A DNA stretch of 37,725 nt. Origin: a virus. Lineage: Duplodnaviria; Heunggongvirae; Uroviricota; Caudoviricetes. Location: IMG/VR virus record IMGVR_UViG_2721755725_000007; one strand, 5' to 3'. The first letter of the stretch is position 1. Every line of letters starts with the position of its first letter. The notes under the pieces are model-generated. The model was not told the DNA's origin. It ran no database searches and was given only the letters and a program-made list of their open reading frames with translations. The position numbers and the translations under genes were made by a program. Below are positions 1-33,135 of this stretch, one piece after another.

Positions 1-327
1 ATGACTAAAAATACTCGTTTTTCCCCCGAAGTCCGTCAGCGGGCGATTCGTATGGTTCTGGAAAGTCAGGATGAATATGACTCACAGTGGGCGGCAATTT
101 GTTCCATTGCCCCAAAGATTGGCTGTACGCCGGAGACTCTGCGTGTCTGGGTTCGCCAGCATGAGCGGGATACCGGGGGCGGTGATGGTGGGCTCACCAG
201 CGCTGAACGTCAGCGTCTGAAAGAGCTGGAACGTGAAAATCGTGAACTGCGCCGCAGTAACGATATCCTTCGCCAGGCTTCCGCTTATTTTGCGAAGGCG
301 GAGTTCGACCGCCTCTGGAAAAAATGA
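1..327 (+). CDS. IS629-type transposase OrfA (HTH subunit)
   Basis: 108-aa [26 protein letters not shown]... with C-terminal leucine-zipper-like [26 protein letters not shown], typical of IS3-family OrfA. Confidence 0.85.
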
Positions 328-1214
328 TGCCACTGCTGGATAAGCTGCGTGAGCAGTACGGGGTCGGACCGGTATGCAGCGAACTGCATATTGCCCCGTC
401 AACGTATTACCATTGTCAGCAACAGCGACATCATCCGGATAAACGCAGTGCCCGTGCGCAGCACGACGACTGGCTGAAGAGAGAGATACAGCGCGTATAC
501 GATGAAAATCATCAGGTGTACGGTGTGCGTAAAGTCTGGCGTCAGTTGTTACGGGAAGGAATCAGGGTGGCCAGATGTACAGTGGCACGTCTCATGGCGG
601 TTATGGGACTTGCCGGTGTTCTCCGGGGTAAAAAGGTCCGTACGACCATCAGCCGGAAAGCCGTTGCCGCAGGCGACCGCGTAAACCGTCAGTTCGTGGC
701 AGAACGACCTGACCAGCTGTGGGTGGCTGATTTTACTTACGTCAGCACATGGCAGGGCTTCGTCTATGTGGCGTTTATCATTGATGTGTTTGCCGGATAC
801 ATCGTGGGGTGGCGGGTCTCATCGTCTATGGAAACGACATTCGTGCTGGATGCGCTGGAGCAGGCGTTGTGGGCCCGTCGTCCGTCTGGCACCATCCATC
901 ACAGCGATAAAGGCTCTCAGTATGTGTCACTGGCCTATACGGAGCGACTAAAAGAAGCCGGATTACTGGCATCAACAGGGAGTACAGGCGACTCGTATGA
1001 CAACGCGATGGCTGAGAGCATCAATGGTCTTTACAAAGCGGAGGTAATACACCGTAAGAGCTGGAAAAACCGTGCAGAAGTGGAACTGGCCACACTCACG
1101 TGGGTGGACTGGTATAACAATCGACGATTGCTGGGAAGGCTGGGCCATACTCCTCCGGCAGAAGCAGAAAAAGCTTATTATGCTTCCATCGGAAACGATG
1201 ATCTGGCAGCCTGA
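324..1214 (+). CDS. IS629-type transposase OrfB (DDE catalytic domain; normally expressed as OrfAB by -1 frameshift)
   Basis: 296-aa ORF overlapping orfA in the -1 frame; contains DDE-integrase-like core (..WVADFTYV.. HSDKGSQY.. DNAMAES..). Confidence 0.85.
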
Positions 1215-1277
1215 GTTCACAGATAAAACACTCTCCAGGAAACCCGGGGCGGTTCACAGGCAGGTGAAAGTGAACCA

Positions 1278-1814
1278 GTGTCACCGGTACCGAAAGTGAC
1301 AGCGCAAATGCTGACTGAGGCGATTGAACAACATGGCCCACAAACGGCGGATGAGCTGGCACTGATGTTCGGGATTACCTCCCGCCGGGCGAATTCATCG
1401 CTGGCCATGGCAATCAGCAAAGGGCGTCTGATTCGCGTGAATCAGGGCGGTAAATTTCGTTACTGCATACCGGGCGCTGATTTACCGGCAGAGCCGGAAG
1501 CTGCATCCGTAGCGGAAACCGATGGTAAAGCCTTTCCTCAGCCAGCAGGTGTTGCGTTACCAGTCCAGGAAACGACGACACAGGAAGAAATGAAAACAGA
1601 AATCGTGGAAGACATTGTGAAGTTACAGCCATCGGTCACCGAAACGAAAGCAGATGACCTGATTCTACCATCGCTGCATGTGGCTAACCGCGAGCTGCGC
1701 CGGGTAAAAGGTCAGGTTCAGAAGTGGGAGCGAGTCTGCGCCGCGCTGCGGGAGCTGAACAAGTGCCGGGATATTCTCCGGGATATTACCGCCACCAGAG
1801 AACAGCAGCGGTGA
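1278..1814 (+). CDS. hypothetical phage protein abutting the IS end (5' part possibly removed by the IS insertion)
   Basis: 178-aa ORF starting at GTG 1278 (or ATG 1308) only 22 nt after the IS629 end; no family recognised; stop overlaps next start (GTGA). Confidence 0.45.
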
Positions 1815-1873
1815 GTGGGTGGAAGACGTGGTGCCGGGCTGAAATTCTGATACTCCGGCAGTGCGCGGGAACA

Positions 1874-2128
1874 ATGAAGGTAAAAAGCATTGGCGCGCTT
1901 ATCGGACGAACTGAAGCGGCAGTGAGAACGAAGGCACGGGAGCTGGGCATCAGCATGATGTTACGTGGTGATTTTCACCCGTCGGCAAAATATTCACAGC
2001 GTGATATTGAGCTGGCGCGGCAACTGCATCAGCGCGGTGTACCCCGACGGGAAATTGCCGAAAAGTTCGGAATGAAGTTGCGTGCAGTGAATAACTACGT
2101 TTATTTCGACAGGAGGGTTCAGGCGTGA
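1874..2128 (+). CDS. hypothetical small protein with helix-turn-helix-like segments
   Basis: ATG 1874 preceded by GGGA; alternative in-frame GTG 1811 overlapping the upstream stop; product MKVKSIGALIGRTEAAVRTKARELGIS...RREIAEKFGMKLRAVNNY. Confidence 0.45.
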   Translation: MKVKSIGALIGRTEAAVRTKARELGISMMLRGDFHPSAKYSQRDIELARQLHQRGVPRREIAEKFGMKLRAVNNYVYFDRRVQA

Positions 2129-2421
2129 GGGTGAGAATTTATATCGCCGGTCCAATGACGGGATATGAAAATTTCAACCGCGAGGCATTTCACAGGGCGG
2201 AAGAAGCACTGAAACGGGAAGGGCATACCGTCTTAAACCCGGCAGTACTTCCGGACGGGCTGACACAGCCGCACTACATGGATATTTGCATGGCAATGAT
2301 TCGTTGTGTGGATGCGGTTTATATGCTGAATGGCTGGCAGCGGTCAGCGGGCGCTAAGGCAGAGCTGGCACTGGCGGAGAAACTGGGGCATGCGGTGATT
2401 TATCAGGAGGTGGCTCAATGA
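2125..2421 (+). CDS. DUF4406-type (nucleoside 2-deoxyribosyltransferase-like) phage protein
   Basis: GTG start 8 nt after AGGAGGG; product MRVRIYIAGPMTG...GWQRSAGAKAELALAEKLG has the motif pattern of DUF4406 proteins of lambdoid phages. Confidence 0.7.
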   Translation: MRVRIYIAGPMTGYENFNREAFHRAEEALKREGHTVLNPAVLPDGLTQPHYMDICMAMIRCVDAVYMLNGWQRSAGAKAELALAEKLGHAVIYQEVAQ

Positions 2422-2879
2422 GAGAGGTTAACTATGAGGCGCTTCGTGAGGCAGCACAAAACTATCAGTCGACGCTGGCGTGGTATCAGGCTATCCCGGA
2501 CAGCCCAAATGCTGAACGGGATTGTGATGCGGCTCTTGCTGCGTTTAAGCGTCACATCCGTCATCGGGAAGCGGATATTATCGCTGATTTGCTGGATGGA
2601 CTGGAAGAAGCAAAATCACAACTCAACGAGCAACGTGAGTATTACGAAGGTGTTATCTCGGATGGGAGTAAGCGCATTGCTGAACTGGAAGCGCGGGAAG
2701 TTCAATTACCGACTCGCTACGACCTTCGATATGGACACCCGATAAATGCAGATGAGCGACAAGTCATGATACCTAAAGAAAATGGCAGTTGGCTTTACCT
2801 GATTGACCTAGAACACGCATTACGCGTCGCTGGCATTCGCATCAAAGGAGAGGAGCATGGAAATAAAACCAGAAGATGA
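2418..2879 (+). CDS. Ead/Ea22-like phage protein
   Basis: ATG after CAGGAGG; C-terminal segment IAELEAREVQLPTRYDLRYGHPINADERQVMIPKENGSWLYL...AGIRIKGE is characteristic of the Ead/Ea22 family. Confidence 0.7.
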   Translation: MREVNYEALREAAQNYQSTLAWYQAIPDSPNAERDCDAALAAFKRHIRHREADIIADLLDGLEEAKSQLNEQREYYEGVISDGSKRIAELEAREVQLPTRYDLRYGHPINADERQVMIPKENGSWLYLIDLEHALRVAGIRIKGEEHGNKTRR

Positions 2880-3213
2880 GTTAAGTAATATTGTTTTATT
2901 TCCGGTAAAAGAGGATGACCCACGTAATCAGGTTAATTTTCTTTATGAGCCATCGGAAAGACCATACTGCCATCACGCCTCTGTCCGGGTTGACGAAAAA
3001 GAGCGTCAGGTCCGCTGTAAAATCTGCGGTTCAGTTGTGGAGCCGTTTGACTGGATGCTCTCTGTGGCGAAAAGAGAAACCAGACTGGCAGATGATGTAA
3101 AGCTATTGCGCCAGGAGGAACAGGAAAGGCGAAAAAATATAGAAAAGTTAATTCAGATTGAGCGTAACGCGAAAGCGCGGATACGCAGGGCGTCAAAATC
3201 CAGAACTGAATAA
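2857..3213 (+). CDS. hypothetical phage protein with putative zinc-ribbon (C-H-H ... CxxC)
   Basis: ATG 2857 after AGGAG; product contains YCHHASVRVDEKERQVRCKICGS; basic coiled C-terminus. Confidence 0.55.
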   Translation: MEIKPEDELSNIVLFPVKEDDPRNQVNFLYEPSERPYCHHASVRVDEKERQVRCKICGSVVEPFDWMLSVAKRETRLADDVKLLRQEEQERRKNIEKLIQIERNAKARIRRASKSRTE

Positions 3214-3308
3214 TTAAATTCAGCACTGTTAAAAATTTAATCCTTAACCGGAGGGATTCCTGCACCCTCAGAACATAAGGAGACCGCCTGAAAGGGTGGT
3301 AATGAAAA

Positions 3309-3680
3309 ATGACTGAATTAACCAAAGAGCAATTAATCAAGGAAGCCAAATTAAAAATAGCGGTTGCGAACTGTTACCCTAATTCAGAGATGGCCAGGGT
3401 AGAGGGTGAGCTATTCAAAATTGCACTGGCATCGCTGGAAGCAGAACCGATAGCGTGGGAATGCGGTGAAAACATAATCCTGTTTAACCCTGACACAGTT
3501 GAAGCATACGCAAAACGTGCGGAAATATCACCTAAACCACTATTCTCCGCGCCGCCAGCGCTGGTAGTGCCTGATAAGTTGCCGCGTGAATACAGAAACG
3601 GTTGGCCTCTTGCGTATAGTGATTATGCTGAAGGCTGGAACGACTGCCGCGAAGCCATGCTTCAGGGAGATAAATCATGA
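3309..3680 (+). CDS. hypothetical phage protein (ea-region type)
   Basis: 123-aa ORF; stop overlaps next start (ATGA); no confident family assignment. Confidence 0.55.
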   Translation: MTELTKEQLIKEAKLKIAVANCYPNSEMARVEGELFKIALASLEAEPIAWECGENIILFNPDTVEAYAKRAEISPKPLFSAPPALVVPDKLPREYRNGWPLAYSDYAEGWNDCREAMLQGDKS

Positions 3681-4030
3681 TTAATCGTATCAAGCTGGAG
3701 CACATCCTCGAATATGCCAGGCAGCAGAGGCATATTGGTCAGCATTGTAAAATTCCACCAGGAGATATGGTTGAAATCATGGAGATTGCCATGCGCAAGG
3801 CTGGCAATTCTCCGGTAACTCCGGATGGTTGGATAAGCTGTAGTGAGCGAATGCCGCCAGTTGGTGTTGATGTACAACTGTTTGTGTCCAGCACGGGTGA
3901 ACAGTTTACAGGTTTTAACCTGGATAATACGGGTGACTTCCAGTATGCGCAGTGTTTCGGTGCGCCCATCGTGTGTGAAGCCACACACTGGATGCCGCTA
4001 CCAGAACCGCCGAAGGAGGTGCGCCAATGA
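3677..4030 (+). CDS. DUF551-domain phage protein
   Basis: Product has WISCSERMPP ... THWMPLPEPP, the signature I associate with DUF551 proteins of enterobacterial prophages. Confidence 0.7.
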   Translation: MINRIKLEHILEYARQQRHIGQHCKIPPGDMVEIMEIAMRKAGNSPVTPDGWISCSERMPPVGVDVQLFVSSTGEQFTGFNLDNTGDFQYAQCFGAPIVCEATHWMPLPEPPKEVRQ

Positions 4031-4110
4031 GCTGGCCTGAAGCCTTCTCAAATGTTGGTATTGCAATGGCGGTGGCGCTGGTTGTGTATTCGATTTGCCG
4101 CTGGGGATAA
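4027..4110 (+). CDS. candidate 27-aa hydrophobic peptide (MSWPEAFSNVGIAMAVALVVYSICRWG)
   Basis: ATG overlaps the DUF551 stop (ATGA); strong Shine-Dalgarno AAGGAGG at 4013-4019, 7 nt upstream; single predicted transmembrane helix; followed by a terminator hairpin. Confidence 0.35.
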   Translation: MSWPEAFSNVGIAMAVALVVYSICRWG

Positions 4111-4122
4111 TTTGCTGAAAAA

Positions 4123-4160
4123 AGATCCCGACACACACATGAGTCGGGGATCTTTGATTT
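4123..4160. terminator. bidirectional intrinsic terminator-like hairpin between convergent + strand operon and - strand toxin-antitoxin operon
   Basis: Inverted repeat AGATCCCGAC ... GTCGGGGATCT (one bulge) flanked by A-run upstream and TTTGATTT downstream. Confidence 0.45.
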
Positions 4161-4235
4161 ATATAGCCTACGAATCCGCCAGTAAGAGAGGGGGCGGACG
4201 GTTTATTCTAATACTGGAATTATGTGGGGAAAAGT

Positions 4236-4535
4236 TTATAAGAAATCGGTTTCATAACTTTGTCCGCCATGATAAATACCTGCGATAAAGACTTTATTGC
4301 CATCAACGGCAAAAGCAATAATCGTTCTGTGGCGGAAGTGAGTTACCCGCATTCCCTGTCGAATATCATCGCGTTTATTGCCCCGATGCGGGAATGTGGA
4401 AAACCCATCAAGATAATCAAGAAGTGCATTGGCATAATTGTCAGCAATGACGCTCCCTGCTTTCTCCGTTATATATCTGTGCAGGTTGATTATCTGCTGT
4501 TCGGCCTCAGGAGTAATGATGACTTCATATGTCAT
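4236..4535 (-). CDS. type II toxin, ParE/RelE superfamily
   Basis: 99-aa product MTYEVIITPEAEQQIINLHRYI...GMRVTHFRHRTIIAFAVDGNKVFIAGIYHGGQSYE; lies 5 nt downstream of the antitoxin gene on the - strand. Confidence 0.75.
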   Translation of the reverse strand: MTYEVIITPEAEQQIINLHRYITEKAGSVIADNYANALLDYLDGFSTFPHRGNKRDDIRQGMRVTHFRHRTIIAFAVDGNKVFIAGIYHGGQSYETDFL

Positions 4536-4540
4536 GCAGA

Positions 4541-4798
4541 TTACTTCCCGGCTCGAATCGCGGCGCGAACCTGTGAAATGGAGCGTCCGTTGTTTGGGTT
4601 TTCGCGGATAGAATCGAGAGATGGGGCGGCTGAATGCGTTAACCACGCTTCGATTGCTTTATCGCGCTCATTCAGTGCGCGAAGCCCTTCACGAATGACC
4701 TCACTTTCTGAAGCATAGGCACCGGAAGCCACACGGGCGCGCACCATGTCAGCCATCTCGTTAGTTAATGTAATGCTGAATTGTTGGGTTGTACGCAT
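4541..4798 (-). CDS. type II antitoxin, ribbon-helix-helix (ParD/CopG-like)
   Basis: 85-aa product MRTTQQFSITLTNEMADMVRARVASGAYASESEVIREGLRAL...; GGGAGG 7 nt upstream of the ATG on the - strand. Confidence 0.75.
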   Translation of the reverse strand: MRTTQQFSITLTNEMADMVRARVASGAYASESEVIREGLRALNERDKAIEAWLTHSAAPSLDSIRENPNNGRSISQVRAAIRAGK

Positions 4799-23620: not shown

Positions 23621-24043
23621 ATGTTTCTGAAAACAGAACAATTTGAATATAACGGTGTGTCCGTCACGCTTTCCGAATTGTCTGCGCTGCAGCGGTTTGA
23701 TTATATAAAGTTTGTTTCAGACGCAGAACAACAGGAGACAACGAAGCATGATGTCGTGCACATTAACCAGCGATATCTGGAAACGGCATCCCTGCTTGTG
23801 GCGATGTCGCTATGGCATTCCCATTCCCTCAAAGGCACTCTGGCCTCTCCGGAGACAGAGATGCAGCAGATCCGCCGTGAAGTGATGCTGGGATGGCCTG
23901 CTGATGCACTGAATCAGGCAACGAACCGGGTGCTTTATCTTTCAGGTATGCTGGATAACCGGCACGATGCCGATCCTGAACCAACCGGGAAAACAGAAGC
24001 GACTGAGCCGGTAACATCAAAAAAGCATTCGAAGGCGAGCTGA
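23621..24043 (+). CDS. G: tail assembly chaperone G
   Basis: Product MFLKTEQFEYNGVSVTLSELSALQRFDYIKF... matches lambda gpG N-terminus; AGGAGG-like SD (CGGAGGT) upstream. Confidence 0.85.
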   Translation: MFLKTEQFEYNGVSVTLSELSALQRFDYIKFVSDAEQQETTKHDVVHINQRYLETASLLVAMSLWHSHSLKGTLASPETEMQQIRREVMLGWPADALNQATNRVLYLSGMLDNRHDADPEPTGKTEATEPVTSKKHSKAS

Positions 24044-24378
24044 ACTTTGTCCTGAAACTGGCGCGTGAGATGGGGAGAGCCGACTGGCGCGCCATGCTTG
24101 CCGGGATGACATCCACCGAATATGCCGACTGGCGACGTTTTTACTGCACGCATTATTTTCAGGATACCCAGCTGGATATGCATTTTTCCGGGCTGATGTA
24201 CGCCGTACTCAGCCTGTTTTTTTGCGATCCGGATATGCATCCGGCGGATTTCAGCCTGTTCGCTCCGGAGGCAGAGGAAGGACAGGCGGAGACGCCGGAC
24301 GAAAATGATGTACTGATGCAGAAGGCGGCGGGCCTCGCCGGTGGAGTCCGTTTCGGGGAGGAGGGAAGGAGGTTGTGA
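23621..24378 (+). CDS. T: tail assembly chaperone GT fusion produced by programmed -1 ribosomal frameshift
   Basis: The -1 frame open downstream of G encodes ...MGRADWRAMLAGMTSTEYADWRRFYCTHYF...MQKAAGLAGGVRFGEEG, matching lambda gpT; slippery heptamer A_AAA_AAG sits at the end of G. Confidence 0.65.
24019..24025 (+). other. -1 programmed frameshift slippery heptamer A AAA AAG (G to GT)
   Basis: In the G frame the codons are tcA AAA AAG; the -1 frame from here is open to 24378. Confidence 0.65.
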
Positions 24379-27067: not shown

Positions 27068-27393
27068 AAACCTTTCGCTGGAAAGTGAAGCCGGATATGG
27101 AGGTGAACTCGCAGCCATCGGTGCGTGAAGTGCGTTTTGGTGATGGGTACTCACAGCGTATGGCGGCAGGGCTGAATGCTGACCTGAAAACATACCGTGT
27201 GACGCTTTCCGTGACCCGGGAGGAGGCCCGGCATCTGGAAGCGTTCCTGGCAGAGCACGGAGGCTGGAAGGCATTTTTGTGGAAGCCACCCTATGCATAC
27301 CGGCAGATAAAGGTGACCTGTGCCGGGTGGTCTGCGCGGGTCGGGATGTTGCGCGTTGAGTTCAGCGCGGAGTTTAAGCAGGTGGTGAACTGA
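27064..27393 (+). CDS. M: minor tail protein M
   Basis: 109-aa ORF overlapping the H stop (ATGA); position and size of lambda gpM. Confidence 0.85.
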   Translation: MKTFRWKVKPDMEVNSQPSVREVRFGDGYSQRMAAGLNADLKTYRVTLSVTREEARHLEAFLAEHGGWKAFLWKPPYAYRQIKVTCAGWSARVGMLRVEFSAEFKQVVN

Positions 27394-28090
27394 TGCAGGA
27401 TATTCACGAAGAAAGTCTGAACGAGTCGGTTAAATCAGAGCAGTCACCGCGGGTGGTACTCTGGGAAATCGACCTGACGGTGCAGGGTGGTGAGCGGTAT
27501 TTTTTCTGCAATGAGCTGAATGAAAAAGGGGAGGCGGTTACCTGGCAGGGGCGGGAATATCAGGCATACCCGATTGACGGCAGCGGTTTTGAGATGAACG
27601 GGAAGGGCAGCAGTGCCCGCCCGTCGCTGACGGTGTCGAATCTGTTCGGTCTGGTCACCGGAATGGCGGAGGACCTGCAGAGCCTGGTGGGGCCACGGTG
27701 GTCCGCCGCCGGGTGTATGCCCGTTTTCTGGATGCGGTGAATTTTGTGGCAGGCAATCCGGAAGCGGACCCGGAGCAGGAGCTGAGCGACCGCTGGGTGG
27801 TGGAGCAGATGTCAGAGCTGACGGCCATGACAGCCTCGTTTGTGCTGGCAACACCGACGGAGACGGACGGGGCGCTGTTTCCTGGTCGCATCATGCTGGC
27901 GAACACCTGTATGTGGACCTACCGCTCTGATGAATGCGGGTATAACGGTCCTGCGGTGGCGGATGAGTTCGACAACCCCACCACGGATATCCGTAAGGAC
28001 AGATGCAGCAAGTGCATGCGCGGGTGTGAGATGCGCGGCATGGTGGCTAATTTTGGCGGTTTCCTTTCCATTAATAAACTTTCGCAGTAA
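27393..28090 (+). pseudogene. L: minor tail protein L, interrupted by a 1-nt frameshift in a G4 run (27689-27692)
   Basis: Two ORFs (27393-27740 and 27698-28090, the latter in the -1 frame) together cover the lambda gpL sequence; adding one G to the run would restore ...QSLVGATVVRRRVYARFLDAVNF..., colinear with lambda L. Confidence 0.65.
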
Positions 28091-28100
28091 ATCCCGGTTT

Positions 28101-28844
28101 ATGACACAGACTGAATCAGCGATTCTGGCGCATGCCCGGCGGTGTGCGCCTGCGGAGTCGTGCGGCTTCGTGGTGAGAACGCCGGAGGGGGAGCGGTATA
28201 TCCCTTGTGTGAATATCTCTGCAGAGCCGGAGGCGTATTTTCGTATTGCACCGGAAGACTGGCTGCGGGCAGAGATGCAGGGGGAGATTGTGGCACTGGT
28301 CCACAGTCATCCCGGTGGTCTGCCCTGGCTGAGCGAGGCCGACCGGCGGCTGCAGATAAAAAGTGCACTGTCCTGGTGGCTGGTCTGCCGGGGGGACATT
28401 CATAAATTCCGCTGTGTGCCACATCTGACAGGACGGCGCTTTGAGCACGGGGTGACGGACTGTTACACGCTGTTCCGGGATGCATACCATCTGGCGGGAA
28501 TTGATATGCCGGATTTTGAGCGTGAGGATGACTGGTGGCGTAACGGTCAGAACCTTTACCTGGACAATATGGCGGTCACCGGCTTTTACCGGGTGCCCCT
28601 GTCCTCTGCACAGGCGGGCGATATCCTGCTGTGCTGCTTTGGCGCATCGGTGGCCAATCATGCCGCCATTTACTGCGGCAACGGTGAACTGCTTCACCAT
28701 CTGCCTGAACAACTGAGTAAACGGGAGAGGTATTCTGAAAAATGGCAACGACGAACGCATTCTGTCTGGCGTCACCGCCACTGGCACGCATCTGCCTTCA
28801 CGGGGATTTGCAACGATTTGGCCGCCGCCTCAGCCTGTACGTGA
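28101..28844 (+). CDS. K: tail tip assembly protein K (JAB/MPN + NlpC/P60-like)
   Basis: ATG 28101; product MTQTESAILAHARRCAPAESCGFVV...HSHPGG... matches lambda gpK; the track ORF from 27840 is an in-frame upstream extension. Confidence 0.85.
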   Translation: MTQTESAILAHARRCAPAESCGFVVRTPEGERYIPCVNISAEPEAYFRIAPEDWLRAEMQGEIVALVHSHPGGLPWLSEADRRLQIKSALSWWLVCRGDIHKFRCVPHLTGRRFEHGVTDCYTLFRDAYHLAGIDMPDFEREDDWWRNGQNLYLDNMAVTGFYRVPLSSAQAGDILLCCFGASVANHAAIYCGNGELLHHLPEQLSKRERYSEKWQRRTHSVWRHRHWHASAFTGICNDLAAASACT

Positions 28845-29422
28845 ACACGGCAGCGGAAGCCATCCGTGCCCTGTCGCTGCAGATGCCGGGATTCCGCCGT
28901 CAGATGAACGAAGGCTGGTACCAGATACGTATTCGCGGTGAGGACACGGCACCGGAGGCGGTGTACGCCCGTCTTCACGAACAGCTGGGTGAGGGAACGG
29001 TCATCCACATTGTGCCGCGACTGGCCGGGGCCGGAAAGGGTGGACTGCAGATTGTGCTGGGGGCGGCAGCCATCGTGGGCTCTTTCTTCACTGCCGGGGC
29101 ATCGATGGCGTTATGGGGTTCAGCCCTGGCAGCCGGTGGTTTTTCTGCCACCACGATGCTGTTTTCACTGGGTGCCAGCATGATACTGGGTGGTGTGGCA
29201 CAGATGCTGGCCCCGAAGCCAAAAACACCGGAATACAGGGCAACGGATAACGGTAAACAGAACACGTACTTTTCGTCGCTGGATAACATGATTGCCCAGG
29301 GGAACCCGATGCCGGTGCCTTACGGTGAAATGCTGGTTGGCTCACGGCGAATCTCCCAGGACATCAGTACCCGTGATGAAGGCGGTGACGGGAAGGTGGT
29401 GGTTATCGGGCGGCAGGGGTAA
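28742..29422 (+). CDS. I: tail assembly protein I
   Basis: Product MATTNAFCLASPPLARICLHGDLQRFGRR... with hydrophobic Gly/Ala-rich C-terminal half, matching lambda gpI; overlaps the 3' end of K as in lambda. Confidence 0.85.
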   Translation: MATTNAFCLASPPLARICLHGDLQRFGRRLSLYVNTAAEAIRALSLQMPGFRRQMNEGWYQIRIRGEDTAPEAVYARLHEQLGEGTVIHIVPRLAGAGKGGLQIVLGAAAIVGSFFTAGASMALWGSALAAGGFSATTMLFSLGASMILGGVAQMLAPKPKTPEYRATDNGKQNTYFSSLDNMIAQGNPMPVPYGEMLVGSRRISQDISTRDEGGDGKVVVIGRQG

Positions 29423-29658: not shown

Positions 29659-32600
29659 ATGGGCAAAGGTGGTGGCAAGGCGCACACGCCGGTTGAGGCA
29701 AAGGACAATCTTAAGTCCACGCAGATGATGAGCGTGATTGATGCGATTGGTGAAGGGCCGATTGAAGGTCCGGTGAAGGGGCTGCAGAGTATTCTGGTGA
29801 ACAAAACCCCGCTGACGGACACGGACGGTAATCCCGTGATACACGGTGTGACTGCGGTCTGGCGTGCCGGGGAGCAGGAGCAGACACCACCGGAAGGCTT
29901 TGAGTCCTCCGGAGCTGAAACCGGACTGGGCGTGGAAGTGACGAAGGCAAAACCGGTGACGCGCACCATTACGTCCGCGAACATTGACCGCCTGCGGGTT
30001 ACCTTCGGGGTGCAGTCACTGGTGGAGACCACCTCAAAGGGTGACCGTAACCCGGCATCCGTCCGCCTGCTGATTCAGTTACAGCGTAACGGTAACTGGG
30101 TGACAGAAAAGGATGTCACCATTAACGGCAAGACCACCTCGCAGTTCCTGGCGTCGGTGATTCTGGATAATCTGCCGCCCCGGCCCTTTAACATCCGGAT
30201 GGTCAGGGAGACGGCGGACAGCACCACGGACCAGCTGCAGAATAAGACGCTGTGGTCGTCATACACCGAAATCATCGATGTGAAACAGTGCTACCCGAAC
30301 ACGGCCATTGTGGGGCTGCAGGTGGATGCGGAGCAGTTCGGCGGCCAGCAGATGACGGTGAACTACCATATCCGCGGTCGCATCATCCAGGTGCCGTCAA
30401 ACTACGACCCGGAAAAACGCACTTACAGCGGTATCTGGGACGGCAGTCTGAAACCGGCATACAGCAACAACCCGGCCTGGTGTCTGTGGGACATGCTGAC
30501 CCACCCGCGCTACGGGATGGGGAAACGCCTGGGGACCGCGGACGTGGACAAATGGGCGCTGTATGCCATCGGGCAGTACTGTGACCAGCGTGTCCCGGAC
30601 GGCTTCGGAGGGACAGAGCCGCGGATGACCTTTAATGCGTACCTGTCACAGCAGCGTAAGGCGTGGGATGTGCTCAGTGATTTCTGCTCGGCGATGCGCT
30701 GTATGCCGGTATGGAACGGCCAGACGCTGACGTTCGTTCAGGACCGCCCGTCGGATGTGGTGTGGCCGTACACCAACTGCGATGTGGTGGTGGATGATAA
30801 CGGCGTGGGGTTTCGCTACAGCTTCAGCGCCCTGAAGGACCGCCACACGGCGGTGGAGGTGAATTACACCGACCCGCAGAACGGCTGGCAGACCTCCACG
30901 GAACTGGTGGAAGACCCGGAAGCCATACTGCGCTACGGGCGCAACCTGCTGAAGATGGATGCGTTCGGCTGCACCAGTCGCGGTCAGGCCCACCGTGCCG
31001 GGCTGTGGGTGATAAAGACCGGACTGCTGGAAACGCAGACGGTGGATTTCACGCTCGGGTCACAGGGGCTGCGTCACACACCCGGTGACATTATTGAAAT
31101 CTGTGATAACGACTATGCCGGGACCATGACCGGCGGACGTGTCCTGTCCATCGATGCCGCCAGCCGCACCCTGACACTGGACCGTGAGGTGACCCTGCCG
31201 GAGACAGGTGCCGCCACGGTGAACCTGATTAACGGCAGCGGTAAGCCGGTGAGCGTGGCCATCACTGCACACCCCGCGCCGGACCGGATACAGGTCAGCA
31301 CCCTGCCTGATGGTGTGGAGACATACGGTGTATGGGGACTCTCCCTGCCGTCACTGCGTCGTCGCCTGTTCCGCTGTGTCTCCATCCGGGAAAACACGGA
31401 CGGCACCTTTGCCATCACGGCGGTGCAGCACGTACCGGAAAAAGAAGCCATCGTGGATAACGGGGCCAGCTTTGAGCCGCAGTCAGGCACCCTGAACAGC
31501 GTTATTCCACCGGCAGTGCAGCACCTCACGGTGGAGGTGAGCGCGGCTGACGGCCAGTATCTGGCACAGGCGAAATGGGACACGCCGCGGGTGGTGAAGG
31601 GGGTGCGCTTCAGTCTGCGACTGACCAGCGGAAGCGGAGAAGGCAGCCGTCTGGTGACCACCGCCATCACCGCGGATACAGAGCATCGTTCCAGTGGTCT
31701 GCCGCTCGGGGAATACACCCTGACAGTCAGGGCAATTAACAGCTATGGCCAGCAGGGCGAACCGGCCACCACCACCTTCCGGATTAACGCGCCAGCAAAA
31801 CCCGCCACCATTGAACTGACGCCGGGGTATTTTCAGATAACGGCGGTCCCGCGTCTTGCGGTGTATGACCCGACGGTACAGTTTGAGTTCTGGTTTTCGG
31901 AGACAAAAATCGCAGACACATCTCAGGTGGAAACCTCTGCCCGTTATCTGGGGACCGGCAGTCAGTGGAGTGTATCCGGCCCGCACATTAAGCCCGGGAA
32001 GGATTTCTGGTTTTACGTGCGCAGCGTCAACCTGGTGGGGAAATCTGCGTTTGTGGAAGTCAGCGGGCAGCCCAGCAATGATGGTGAAGGGTATCTGGAA
32101 TTTTTCCGGGAAAAAATAGGAAAACTGCATCTGGCTCAGGGGCTGTGGGAGCTGATAGACAACAGCCAGCTTGCGGATGAGATGGCGGAGATGAAGACCA
32201 CCATCACCGAAACCCGCAATGAAATCACACAGACGGTCAGTAAAACGCTGGAAGACCAGAGCGCCACCATTCAGCAGATACAGCGCGTGCAGAAGGACAC
32301 AAATGATGACCTGGCTGCGCTGTACATGCTGAAGGTTCAAAAAACGAAAGACGGCATTCCCTATGTGGCCGGGATTGGTGCAGGGATTGAGGATACTGAT
32401 GGCCAGCCACTGAGCAACATACTGCTGCTGGCTGACCGTATCGCGATGATAAATCCGGAGAGCGGCAACAGCACGCCGTTATTTGTGGCGCAGGGGAATC
32501 AGCTGTTCATGAACGACGTGTTCCTGAAACGACTGTTTGCGGTGAGCATCACGTCATCCGGCAATCCTCCGGCATTTTCCCTGACGCCGGACGGGCGACT

Positions 32601-33135
32601 GACGGCGAAAAATGCGGATATCAGTGGCAGTGTGAATGCGAACTCAGGGACGCTCAACAACGTCACGATTAATGAGAACTGTCAGATTAAGGGGAAACTG
32701 TCAGCCAACCAGATTGAAGGCGATATTGTCAAAACGGTCAGCAAGTCTTTCCCCCGCACGAGCACTTATGCCAGTGGCACCATCACGGTAAGAATCAGTG
32801 ATGATCAGAAGTTTGACCGGCAGGTCATGATACCGCCAGTGTTATTCCGCGGTGGTAAGCATGAGAATTTCAACAGTAATAACCAACAGTCATACTGGTA
32901 TTCAACCTGCCGGTTAAGAGTGACCCGCAATGGTCAGGAGATTTTTAATCAGTCCACGACGGATGCTCAGGGCGTATTTTCCTCAGTTATAGATATGCCT
33001 GCCGGACAGGGGACGCTGACACTGACATTCACCGTATCTTCATCAGGAGCGAATAACTGGACACCAACAACCAGTATCAGCGATCTGCTGGTTGTTGTGA
33101 TGAAGAAAGCCACCGCAGGCATCAGTATCAGCTGA
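29659..33135 (+). CDS. J: host-specificity / central tail fibre protein J
   Basis: ATG 29659 after AAGGG; product [39 protein letters not shown]... and many later blocks match lambda gpJ as recalled. Confidence 0.9.

What the first reader, a model, noticed from the sequence alone, without database searches (positions are those of the whole stretch)
27660..27720. Frameshift splitting minor tail protein L in a G4 homopolymer
Translation in the L frame yields ...QSLVGPRWSAAGCMPVFWMR*, whereas the -1 frame from the same point continues ...TVVRRRVYARFLDAVNF..., colinear with lambda gpL. One additional G in the run 27689-27692 would restore a full-length L. Either the prophage has a defective tail (cryptic or decaying) or this is a homopolymer sequencing error.
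Basis: seen in the sequence. Interest (0 to 1): 0.4.

Follow-up and report, generated by a model that had tools for sequence, protein, structure and literature searches.

The report
Broken tail gene L in prophage remnant
A lambda-like tail-tip gene (L) in a decayed prophage of pathogenic E. coli O111 is split by a genuine one-base deletion that public genome annotation already flags, so this is ordinary prophage decay.

Summary
Gene L (window 27393..28090) is split into a 115-aa and a 130-aa ORF by loss of one G from a run that is GGGGG in intact relatives (GGGG at 27689-27692). Adding one G gives a 232-aa protein that aligns without gaps to lambda gpL.

It is not a sequencing error. The same 4-G allele occurs in 29 independent complete E. 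coli assemblies, nearly all of the O111 lineage, including reference strain 11128. In one strain it is present in three different co-resident prophages.

The break falls inside gpL's N-terminal beta-sandwich and puts the iron-sulfur domain in another frame, so the gene is a pseudogene. RefSeq already annotates it as 'frameshifted'.

The prophage sits at ompW and is a remnant. IS1203 cuts off its early side, and the matching genomes show no integrase, repressor or replication genes there. The same genomes also carry at least one intact L gene, so complementation in trans is possible.

Exact-identity tracts of about 0.75 to 4.2 kb around the site show the dead allele spread between prophages by recombination. 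I found no sign of programmed frameshifting.

Verdict: real, already known and ordinary; low interest.

The parts
27393..28090 (+). Gene L, the lambda-type tail-tip hub protein (minor tail protein L), here a pseudogene of 698 bp instead of 699 bp
   Evidence: Both halves match Pfam PF05100. The repaired product is colinear with lambda gpL. RefSeq marks the identical sequence 'frameshifted'.
27689..27692 (+). GGGG run, the site of the 1-bp deletion (GGGGG or GGGTG in intact alleles)
   Evidence: Alignments.
27393..27740 (+). Upstream ORF of 115 aa: gpL residues 1-100 followed by 15 out-of-frame residues and a stop
   Evidence: Pfam profile positions 3-74.
27698..28090 (+). Downstream ORF in the -1 frame (130 aa from GTG 27698; this frame is open from 27593). 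It encodes gpL residues about 101-232, including the four iron-sulfur cysteines at repaired positions 173, 182, 205 and 212
   Evidence: Pfam profile positions 75-206. Cysteine roles from PMC10721106.
27064..27393 (+). Gene M (distal tail protein), intact, immediately upstream
   Evidence: Pfam PF05939, E=3.7e-38. RefSeq WP_000847298.1. Coordinates mapped.
28101..28844 (+). Gene K homologue (C40 peptidase), intact, immediately downstream. It is followed by I (28841..29422) and J (29659..33135)
   Evidence: RefSeq annotation of the near-identical record, mapped to the window.
1..1214 (+). IS1203 transposase at the window's start. It truncates the adjacent DUF1627 gene (1254..1814) and marks the early-side end of the prophage remnant

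Best explanation
This is a genuine, inherited 1-bp deletion (G5 to G4) in gene L of a lambda-like prophage remnant integrated at ompW in enterohaemorrhagic E. coli O111. L encodes the tail-tip hub protein. Translation from the L start codon yields 100 native residues plus a 15-residue out-of-frame tail. This cuts the N-terminal beta-sandwich (HDI) domain in the middle and removes the C-terminal [4Fe-4S] domain, so the copy cannot supply a functional hub protein (inferred from the lambda structure, not tested). The prophage is already immobile. IS1203 has removed its early side and, in the matching genomes, no integrase, repressor or replication genes remain. L is therefore one of several lesions in a decaying element. 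The dead allele was then copied between co-resident, highly similar lambdoid prophages by homologous recombination. Other strains regained an intact but different L allele at the same locus by the same route. Intact L paralogues in the same genome could supply the protein in trans if tail assembly ever occurred.
For: Shown directly:
- The split and its exact repair are in the sequence.
- The two ORFs abut at Pfam Phage_tail_L positions 74/75.
- The window is 99.987% identical to O111:NM strain 2010C-3053, and the prophage lies beside an ompW remnant.
- The 4-G allele is in 29 of 1,838 matching records: 28 that appear to be O111-lineage (many are labelled by strain name only) plus one O121.
- None of 150 matching phage records reaches 99% identity, and every one of the 30 listed rows spans 699 bp.
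- PGAP flags the gene 'frameshifted' in NC_013364.1 (locus tag ECO111_RS08580) and in every other copy I fetched.
- Strain 08-4377 has the allele in three prophages with three different tape-measure proteins.
- Exact-identity tracts around the site span 753 to 4,249 bp between those prophages, while sequence further out diverges.
- O111:H8 strains 1056-1, 8234 and 7-27 20A have an intact L at the same locus that differs by about 45 substitutions and reads GGGTGCC at the site.
- An intact L allele lies at about 1.28 Mb in 2010C-3053 and about 2.54 Mb in 11128.
- IS1203 bounds the prophage, and no int, cI, O or P genes precede host gene yciI.

From the literature:
- gpL residues 1-166 form the HDI domain, and Cys173/182/205/212 bind the Fe-S cluster (PMC10721106). 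The repaired protein has Cys at those positions.
- All ompW-site prophages studied are defective (PMC8112680).
- Defective EHEC prophages can be complemented by co-resident ones (PMC2669165).
Against: - No read-level data were seen, so the argument against an error rests on concordance among assemblies.
- Loss of function is inferred from the lambda structure and was not measured.
- A GGGG run allows perfect re-pairing of the glycine tRNA after a -1 slip, so a low level of full-length protein cannot be excluded.
- The O121 RM8352 copy shares only 163 identical bases around the site and sits next to a frameshifted tape-measure gene. That copy could be an independent mutation or an assembly error.
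Confidence: 0.93

Rival explanations
1. Homopolymer sequencing or assembly error: the real genome has GGGGG and an intact L.
For: Single-base homopolymer miscalls are a common artefact. The isolated O121 RM8352 case, which also has a frameshifted tape-measure gene, could be one.
Against: The identical allele is in 29 complete assemblies. Judging from their accession series and strain collections, these come from several laboratories. It occurs in up to three paralogous copies per genome. It is embedded in recombination tracts with defined breakpoints. A run of 4 or 5 G is short for a systematic miscall.
Confidence: 0.02
2. Recoding: ribosomes slip -1 on G GGG (the glycine tRNA re-pairs from GGG 27690-27692 to GGG 27689-27691, then GCC is read). 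This would restore exactly the wild-type ...LVGATVV... sequence, so the gene is leaky or deliberately expressed at a low level.
For: The geometry is right. A -1 slip at this run gives the native protein sequence (read from the sequence).
Against: There is no X XXY YYZ tandem-slippage heptamer (G GGG CCA does not fit). The downstream RNA folds no better than shuffles, z=-1.22, with 26 of 200 shuffles folding at least as well. 1,809 of the 1,838 matching records do not show this 81-bp 4-G segment as their best match, and none of the matching phage records carries the allele. The allele is therefore a recent derived mutation, not a conserved signal. The prophage cannot excise or replicate anyway.
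Confidence: 0.03
3. Split gene: the two ORFs are both translated, the second starting at GTG 27698 behind the Shine-Dalgarno-like GGTGGGG, and the fragments assemble into a working hub protein.
For: A GTG with a purine-rich GGTGGGG 6 nt upstream exists.
Against: The break lies in the middle of the HDI beta-sandwich (residues 1-166) and not at the domain boundary near residues 154-166. The N-fragment carries 15 foreign residues. Among the L genes I fetched, every one that is not frameshifted is a single ORF.
Confidence: 0.02

Closest known systems
Bacteriophage lambda gpL, the tail-tip hub protein (PDB 8IYK chain L; Pfam PF05100 Phage_tail_L)
   Same: The repaired product is 232 aa and aligns 1-232 without gaps, E=4.9e-124. 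The four Fe-S cysteines and the M-L-K-I-J gene order are the same.
   Different: Here the reading frame is broken after residue 100 by a 1-bp deletion, so no full-length protein is encoded.
RefSeq pseudogene ECO111_RS08580 of E. coli O111:H- strain 11128 (NC_013364.1, 1636142..1636839)
   Same: 100% identical over all 698 bases, at the same ompW prophage locus. It is annotated 'phage minor tail protein L, frameshifted'.
   Different: None within the gene. The 11128 prophage has one extra IS1203 between the holin and lysozyme genes that the window lacks.
Defective ompW-site prophages (PPompW) and the defective prophage pool of EHEC (Nakamura et al. 2021, PMC8112680; Asadulghani et al. 2009, PMC2669165)
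   Same: A lambdoid prophage at ompW with IS insertions, deletions and several inactivated genes. Co-resident prophages have near-identical morphogenesis genes that recombine and can complement one another.
   Different: In the passages I searched, neither paper describes this L frameshift in O111. PMC2669165 does not use the word 'frameshift', and PMC8112680 mentions O111 only once. That the same dead allele sits in up to three prophages of one genome is shown here only from genome comparison.
The stf frameshift of laboratory lambda (mentioned in PMC10721106)
   Same: A frameshift mutation that inactivates a tail gene in a lambdoid phage.
   Different: stf is dispensable for plaque formation. 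L is an essential tail-tip gene in lambda (my own knowledge of lambda genetics), so this lesion should abolish tail assembly from this copy.

Membership tests
Lambda-type tail-tip hub protein L (Pfam PF05100) | Significant sequence match over the whole family profile | tested here: met
   Profile positions 3-74 (E=2.8e-29) and 75-206 (E=2.7e-54), on the two ORFs.
Lambda-type tail-tip hub protein L (Pfam PF05100) | Colinearity with lambda gpL and four cysteines for the [4Fe-4S] cluster | tested here: met
   The repaired protein aligns 1-232 to 8iyk_L. It has Cys at 173, 182, 205 and 212 (roles from PMC10721106).
Lambda-type tail-tip hub protein L (Pfam PF05100) | Gene order M-L-K-I-J within a tail module | tested here: met
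   RefSeq annotation of near-identical records, mapped to the window.
Lambda-type tail-tip hub protein L (Pfam PF05100) | One uninterrupted reading frame encoding the full protein (a functional member) | tested here: not met
   A stop at 27738-27740 follows 15 out-of-frame codons. This is a pseudogene of the family.
Programmed -1 ribosomal frameshift site | Slippery heptamer X XXY YYZ | tested here: not met
   The sequence is G GGG CCA. Only single-tRNA slippage is possible.
Programmed -1 ribosomal frameshift site | Stable stimulatory structure a few bases downstream | tested here: not met
   The fold of 27685-27775 gives z=-1.22 against shuffles.
Programmed -1 ribosomal frameshift site | The frameshift requirement is conserved among homologues | tested here: not met
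   Only 29 of 1,838 matching E. coli records show the 4-G allele, and none of 150 phage records carries it.
Sequencing or assembly artefact | Not reproducible across independent assemblies | tested here: not met
   The allele is identical in 29 complete genomes and in several copies per genome. Reads were not available.
Phase-variable homopolymer (contingency locus) | A long tract, with both lengths found on the same haplotype in close relatives | tested here: not met
   The tract is only 4-5 G. The intact alleles at this locus in three other O111:H8 strains differ by about 45 substitutions and read GGGTGCC, so they are replacements and not reversions.
Defective prophage at ompW (PPompW) | Lambdoid prophage adjoining a truncated ompW, with multiple inactivations | tested here: met
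   An ompW remnant lies next to the late end. There is an IS1203 truncation, no int, cI, O or P genes, and several pseudogenes. Literature definition.

The most novel reading that the evidence does not exclude
The GGGG run may be a leaky site rather than a dead one. Occasional -1 slippage of the glycine tRNA, or reversion from G4 to G5, would regenerate exactly wild-type L. On this reading, the recombinational spread of the allele through up to three co-resident prophages reflects selection for prophages with a throttled tail supply and is not neutral decay.
Probability: 0.03. Interest if true: 0.4.

Novelty: already known. Interest (0 to 1): 0.1.

Why it matters
It matters little beyond annotation. 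The result confirms that this ompW prophage of O111 EHEC cannot build its own tail tip, which agrees with published evidence that ompW-site prophages are defective. The modestly useful by-product is a clean example of one inactivating mutation being passed among co-resident lambdoid prophages by recombination, and being replaced again by intact alleles. This shows how fluid tail modules are in EHEC prophage pools. It also shows why a pseudogene call in one prophage does not predict whether the strain can make tails.

Tried and rejected
- Sequencing error: rejected on cross-assembly concordance.
- Programmed frameshift: rejected. There is no slippery heptamer, no significant downstream structure and no conservation of the frameshift.
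- Simple reversion as the source of the intact L at the same locus in other O111:H8 strains: rejected. Those alleles differ at about 45 positions.
- Independent recurrent slippage as the explanation for multiple copies within O111 genomes: rejected in favour of recombination, because the copies share exact-identity tracts of 0.75-4.2 kb. It remains possible for the O121 copy.
- Suspected deletion of tonB-yciA-yciB-yciC next to the prophage: rejected. 5,423 of 5,426 genomes contain the block, so the locus is rearranged and not deleted.
- The truncated T gene as a second tail lesion: not established. It is a shorter sequence variant at the T/H junction.
- Ogura et al. 2009 (the O111 genome paper) could not be read because it is not held.
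- One literature search failed on term syntax.

Full report
**Observation**

The window reads CTGGTGGGGCCACGGTGG around the site, with GGGG at 27689-27692. ORF 27393..27740 (115 aa) ends ...QSLVGPRWSAAGCMPVFWMR*. The frame one base back is open from 27593 and runs to 28090, reading ...GGATVVRRRVYARFLDAV.... Pfam Phage_tail_L matches the first ORF at profile positions 3-74 (E=2.8e-29) and the second at positions 75-206 (E=2.7e-54), so these are abutting halves of one gene. An alignment with intact relatives shows one gap, in a run that is GGGGG in strain 2013C-3342 and in phage VT1-Sakai. Adding one G gives a 232-aa protein that aligns residue 1-232 with lambda gpL (PDB 8iyk chain L, E=4.9e-124) without gaps.

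**Where the window comes from**

The whole window is 99.987% identical (4 mismatches, 1 gap) to E. coli O111:NM strain 2010C-3053, NZ_CP077526.1. It is a lambdoid prophage whose late end adjoins a remnant of ompW, next to yciE-yciF-yciG-trpA. Window position 1 lies at the end of the IS1203 transposase gene, and this IS truncates a DUF1627 gene. Beyond the IS, the matching genomes have about 3 kb holding a small recombinase gene and then the host gene yciI. There is no integrase, repressor or replication gene. The reference strain O111:H- 11128 has the same structure plus one extra IS1203. The element is therefore a grounded remnant. Nakamura et al. 2021 found that all ompW-site prophages they analysed were defective through multiple inactivations and deletions (PMC8112680).

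**Real mutation or sequencing error**

- The 698-bp gene is 100% identical in 23 complete genomes and at least 99.9% identical in 26.
- An 81-bp probe centred on the run is 100% identical, which means it carries the 4-G allele, in 29 of 1,838 matching records. These are 28 strains that appear to be O111-lineage (many labelled by strain name only) and one O121 strain.
- Among phage records, 150 match the gene but none reaches 99% identity. Every one of the 30 listed rows spans 699 bp.
- RefSeq's pipeline marks the gene 'frameshifted' in each copy I fetched, including ECO111_RS08580 of strain 11128.
- The assemblies carry accession series and strain names from several collections, which I take to mean several laboratories.

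Concordance of this kind is not what a miscall in a 4-5 base run would give. I had no read data.

**Spread among prophages**

Strain 08-4377 carries the frameshifted allele in three prophages, at about 1.28, 2.03 and 2.90 Mb. Their tape-measure proteins differ: WP_000918243.1, WP_000081781.1 and WP_000918237.1. Strain E2863 has a second copy beside a different tape-measure protein, a different K protein and a different J protein. Strain 05-3004 has a recombinant in which the sequence 5' of the site equals the window and the sequence from 61 bp downstream is of the Sakai type.

Exact-identity tracts around the site run from 753 to 4,249 bp between the three 08-4377 prophages, whereas the G/T/H-start region is only 94-96% identical or unalignable. 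This pattern indicates that one mutation was copied by homologous recombination between co-resident prophages, not that slippage recurred.

Exchange also occurred in the other direction. O111:H8 strains 1056-1, 8234 and 7-27 20A have an intact L at the same ompW locus, but it differs at about 45 positions and reads GGGTGCC at the site. That allele (WP_001152113.1) is present at about 1.28 Mb in 2010C-3053 and about 2.54 Mb in 11128.

The O121 RM8352 copy shares only 163 identical bases around the site and lies beside a frameshifted tape-measure gene. It is either an independent event or an error in that assembly.

**Consequence for the protein**

In the lambda virion, gpL has an N-terminal beta-sandwich HDI domain (residues 1-166). 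[quoted passage not shown] The C-terminal domain binds a [4Fe-4S] cluster through Cys173, 182, 205 and 212 (PMC10721106). The break here comes after residue 100, inside the HDI domain. All four cysteines, which are present at the same positions in the repaired protein, lie in the other frame. I infer that the 115-aa product is non-functional. This was not tested. Genes M, K, I and J around it are annotated intact. Because the same genomes hold at least one intact L paralogue, supply in trans is conceivable, as was shown in general for defective prophages of O157 Sakai (PMC2669165).

**Alternatives**

A -1 slip of the glycine tRNA on G GGG would regenerate exactly the native sequence LVGATVV (read from the sequence). 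Three things argue against this being a real signal. There is no X XXY YYZ heptamer. The downstream 91 nt fold no better than shuffles, z=-1.22. The frameshift is a rare derived state. A GTG at 27698 preceded by GGTGGGG could start the second ORF, but the split lies mid-domain. Neither alternative has positive support.

**Comparison with what is known, and novelty**

The gene is a pseudogene member of the lambda gpL family in a defective ompW prophage of O111 EHEC, and public annotation already flags it. The frameshift itself is not new. Sharing of one dead allele by up to three prophages of a genome is a tidy illustration of known inter-prophage recombination. Interest is low.

Noticed in passing
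L009:3744-4441, L013:4024-4721, L014:4342-5039 (strain 08-4377, NZ_CP077596.1 at about 1.28, 2.03 and 2.90 Mb): The same frameshifted L allele is present in three different prophages of one genome. Exact-identity tracts of 0.75-4.2 kb surround the site, while the flanks diverge. This indicates that a pseudogene allele spread between co-resident prophages by recombination.
   Followed up: yes
L010:9970-10668, L011:9871-10569, L012:9904-10602 (O111:H8 strains 1056-1, 8234 and 7-27 20A): At the same ompW locus these strains carry an intact L that differs by about 45 substitutions and reads GGGTGCC at the site. The identical allele (WP_001152113.1, the one in 1056-1 and 8234) lies in another prophage at about 1.28 Mb in the window's closest genome, so the tail module is exchanged in both directions.
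   Followed up: yes
L008:812-4441 (O121 strain RM8352, NZ_CP028110.1): A 4-G L allele on a different sequence background, with only 163 identical bases around the site, lies next to a tape-measure gene that is also annotated as frameshifted. It is either an independent slippage event or assembly errors in that genome.
   Followed up: partly
window 1-1814: An IS1203 transposase gene (1..1214) abuts a DUF1627 gene that lacks its N-terminus (1254..1814). In the matching genomes no integrase, repressor or replication genes lie beyond it, only about 3 kb with a small recombinase gene and then host yciI.
   Followed up: partly
L006:4427-7616 and L015:7245-10434 (between IS1203 and yciI): The K-12 genes tonB-yciA-yciB-yciC and the 5' part of ompW are not at this locus in the O111 genomes. 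The block is present in 5,423 of 5,426 E. coli genomes, so it has been moved by a rearrangement rather than lost. I did not find its new position.
   Followed up: partly
window 24070-24372: The T part of the G-T tail chaperone is annotated 'missing C-terminus'. Alignment shows a variant about 111 bp shorter, with a different T end and a different tape-measure start than in other prophages. Whether this is a second tail defect is open. The G/T slip site reads GGGAAAA at 23987-23993.
   Followed up: partly
window 9147-9217: RefSeq annotates a 71-nt tRNA-Met at the matching position in 2010C-3053 and 11128, but ARAGORN finds no tRNA anywhere in the window.
   Followed up: no
window 12587-13097: The hypothetical gene between the holin and lysozyme genes is annotated as frameshifted and incomplete. 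In strain 11128 the same gene is the insertion site of a second IS1203 copy that the window lacks.
   Followed up: no
window 35712-37445: An IS1 copy (35712..36411), a 196-aa 'protein kinase' (36587..37177) and a transposase fragment lie at the late end near ompW. The kinase may be a degraded nleH effector of the ompW-prophage effector locus described in PMC8112680.
   Followed up: no
window 4236-4798, minus strand: A ParD/ParE toxin-antitoxin pair, annotated intact, sits inside the prophage's early-right region.
   Followed up: no
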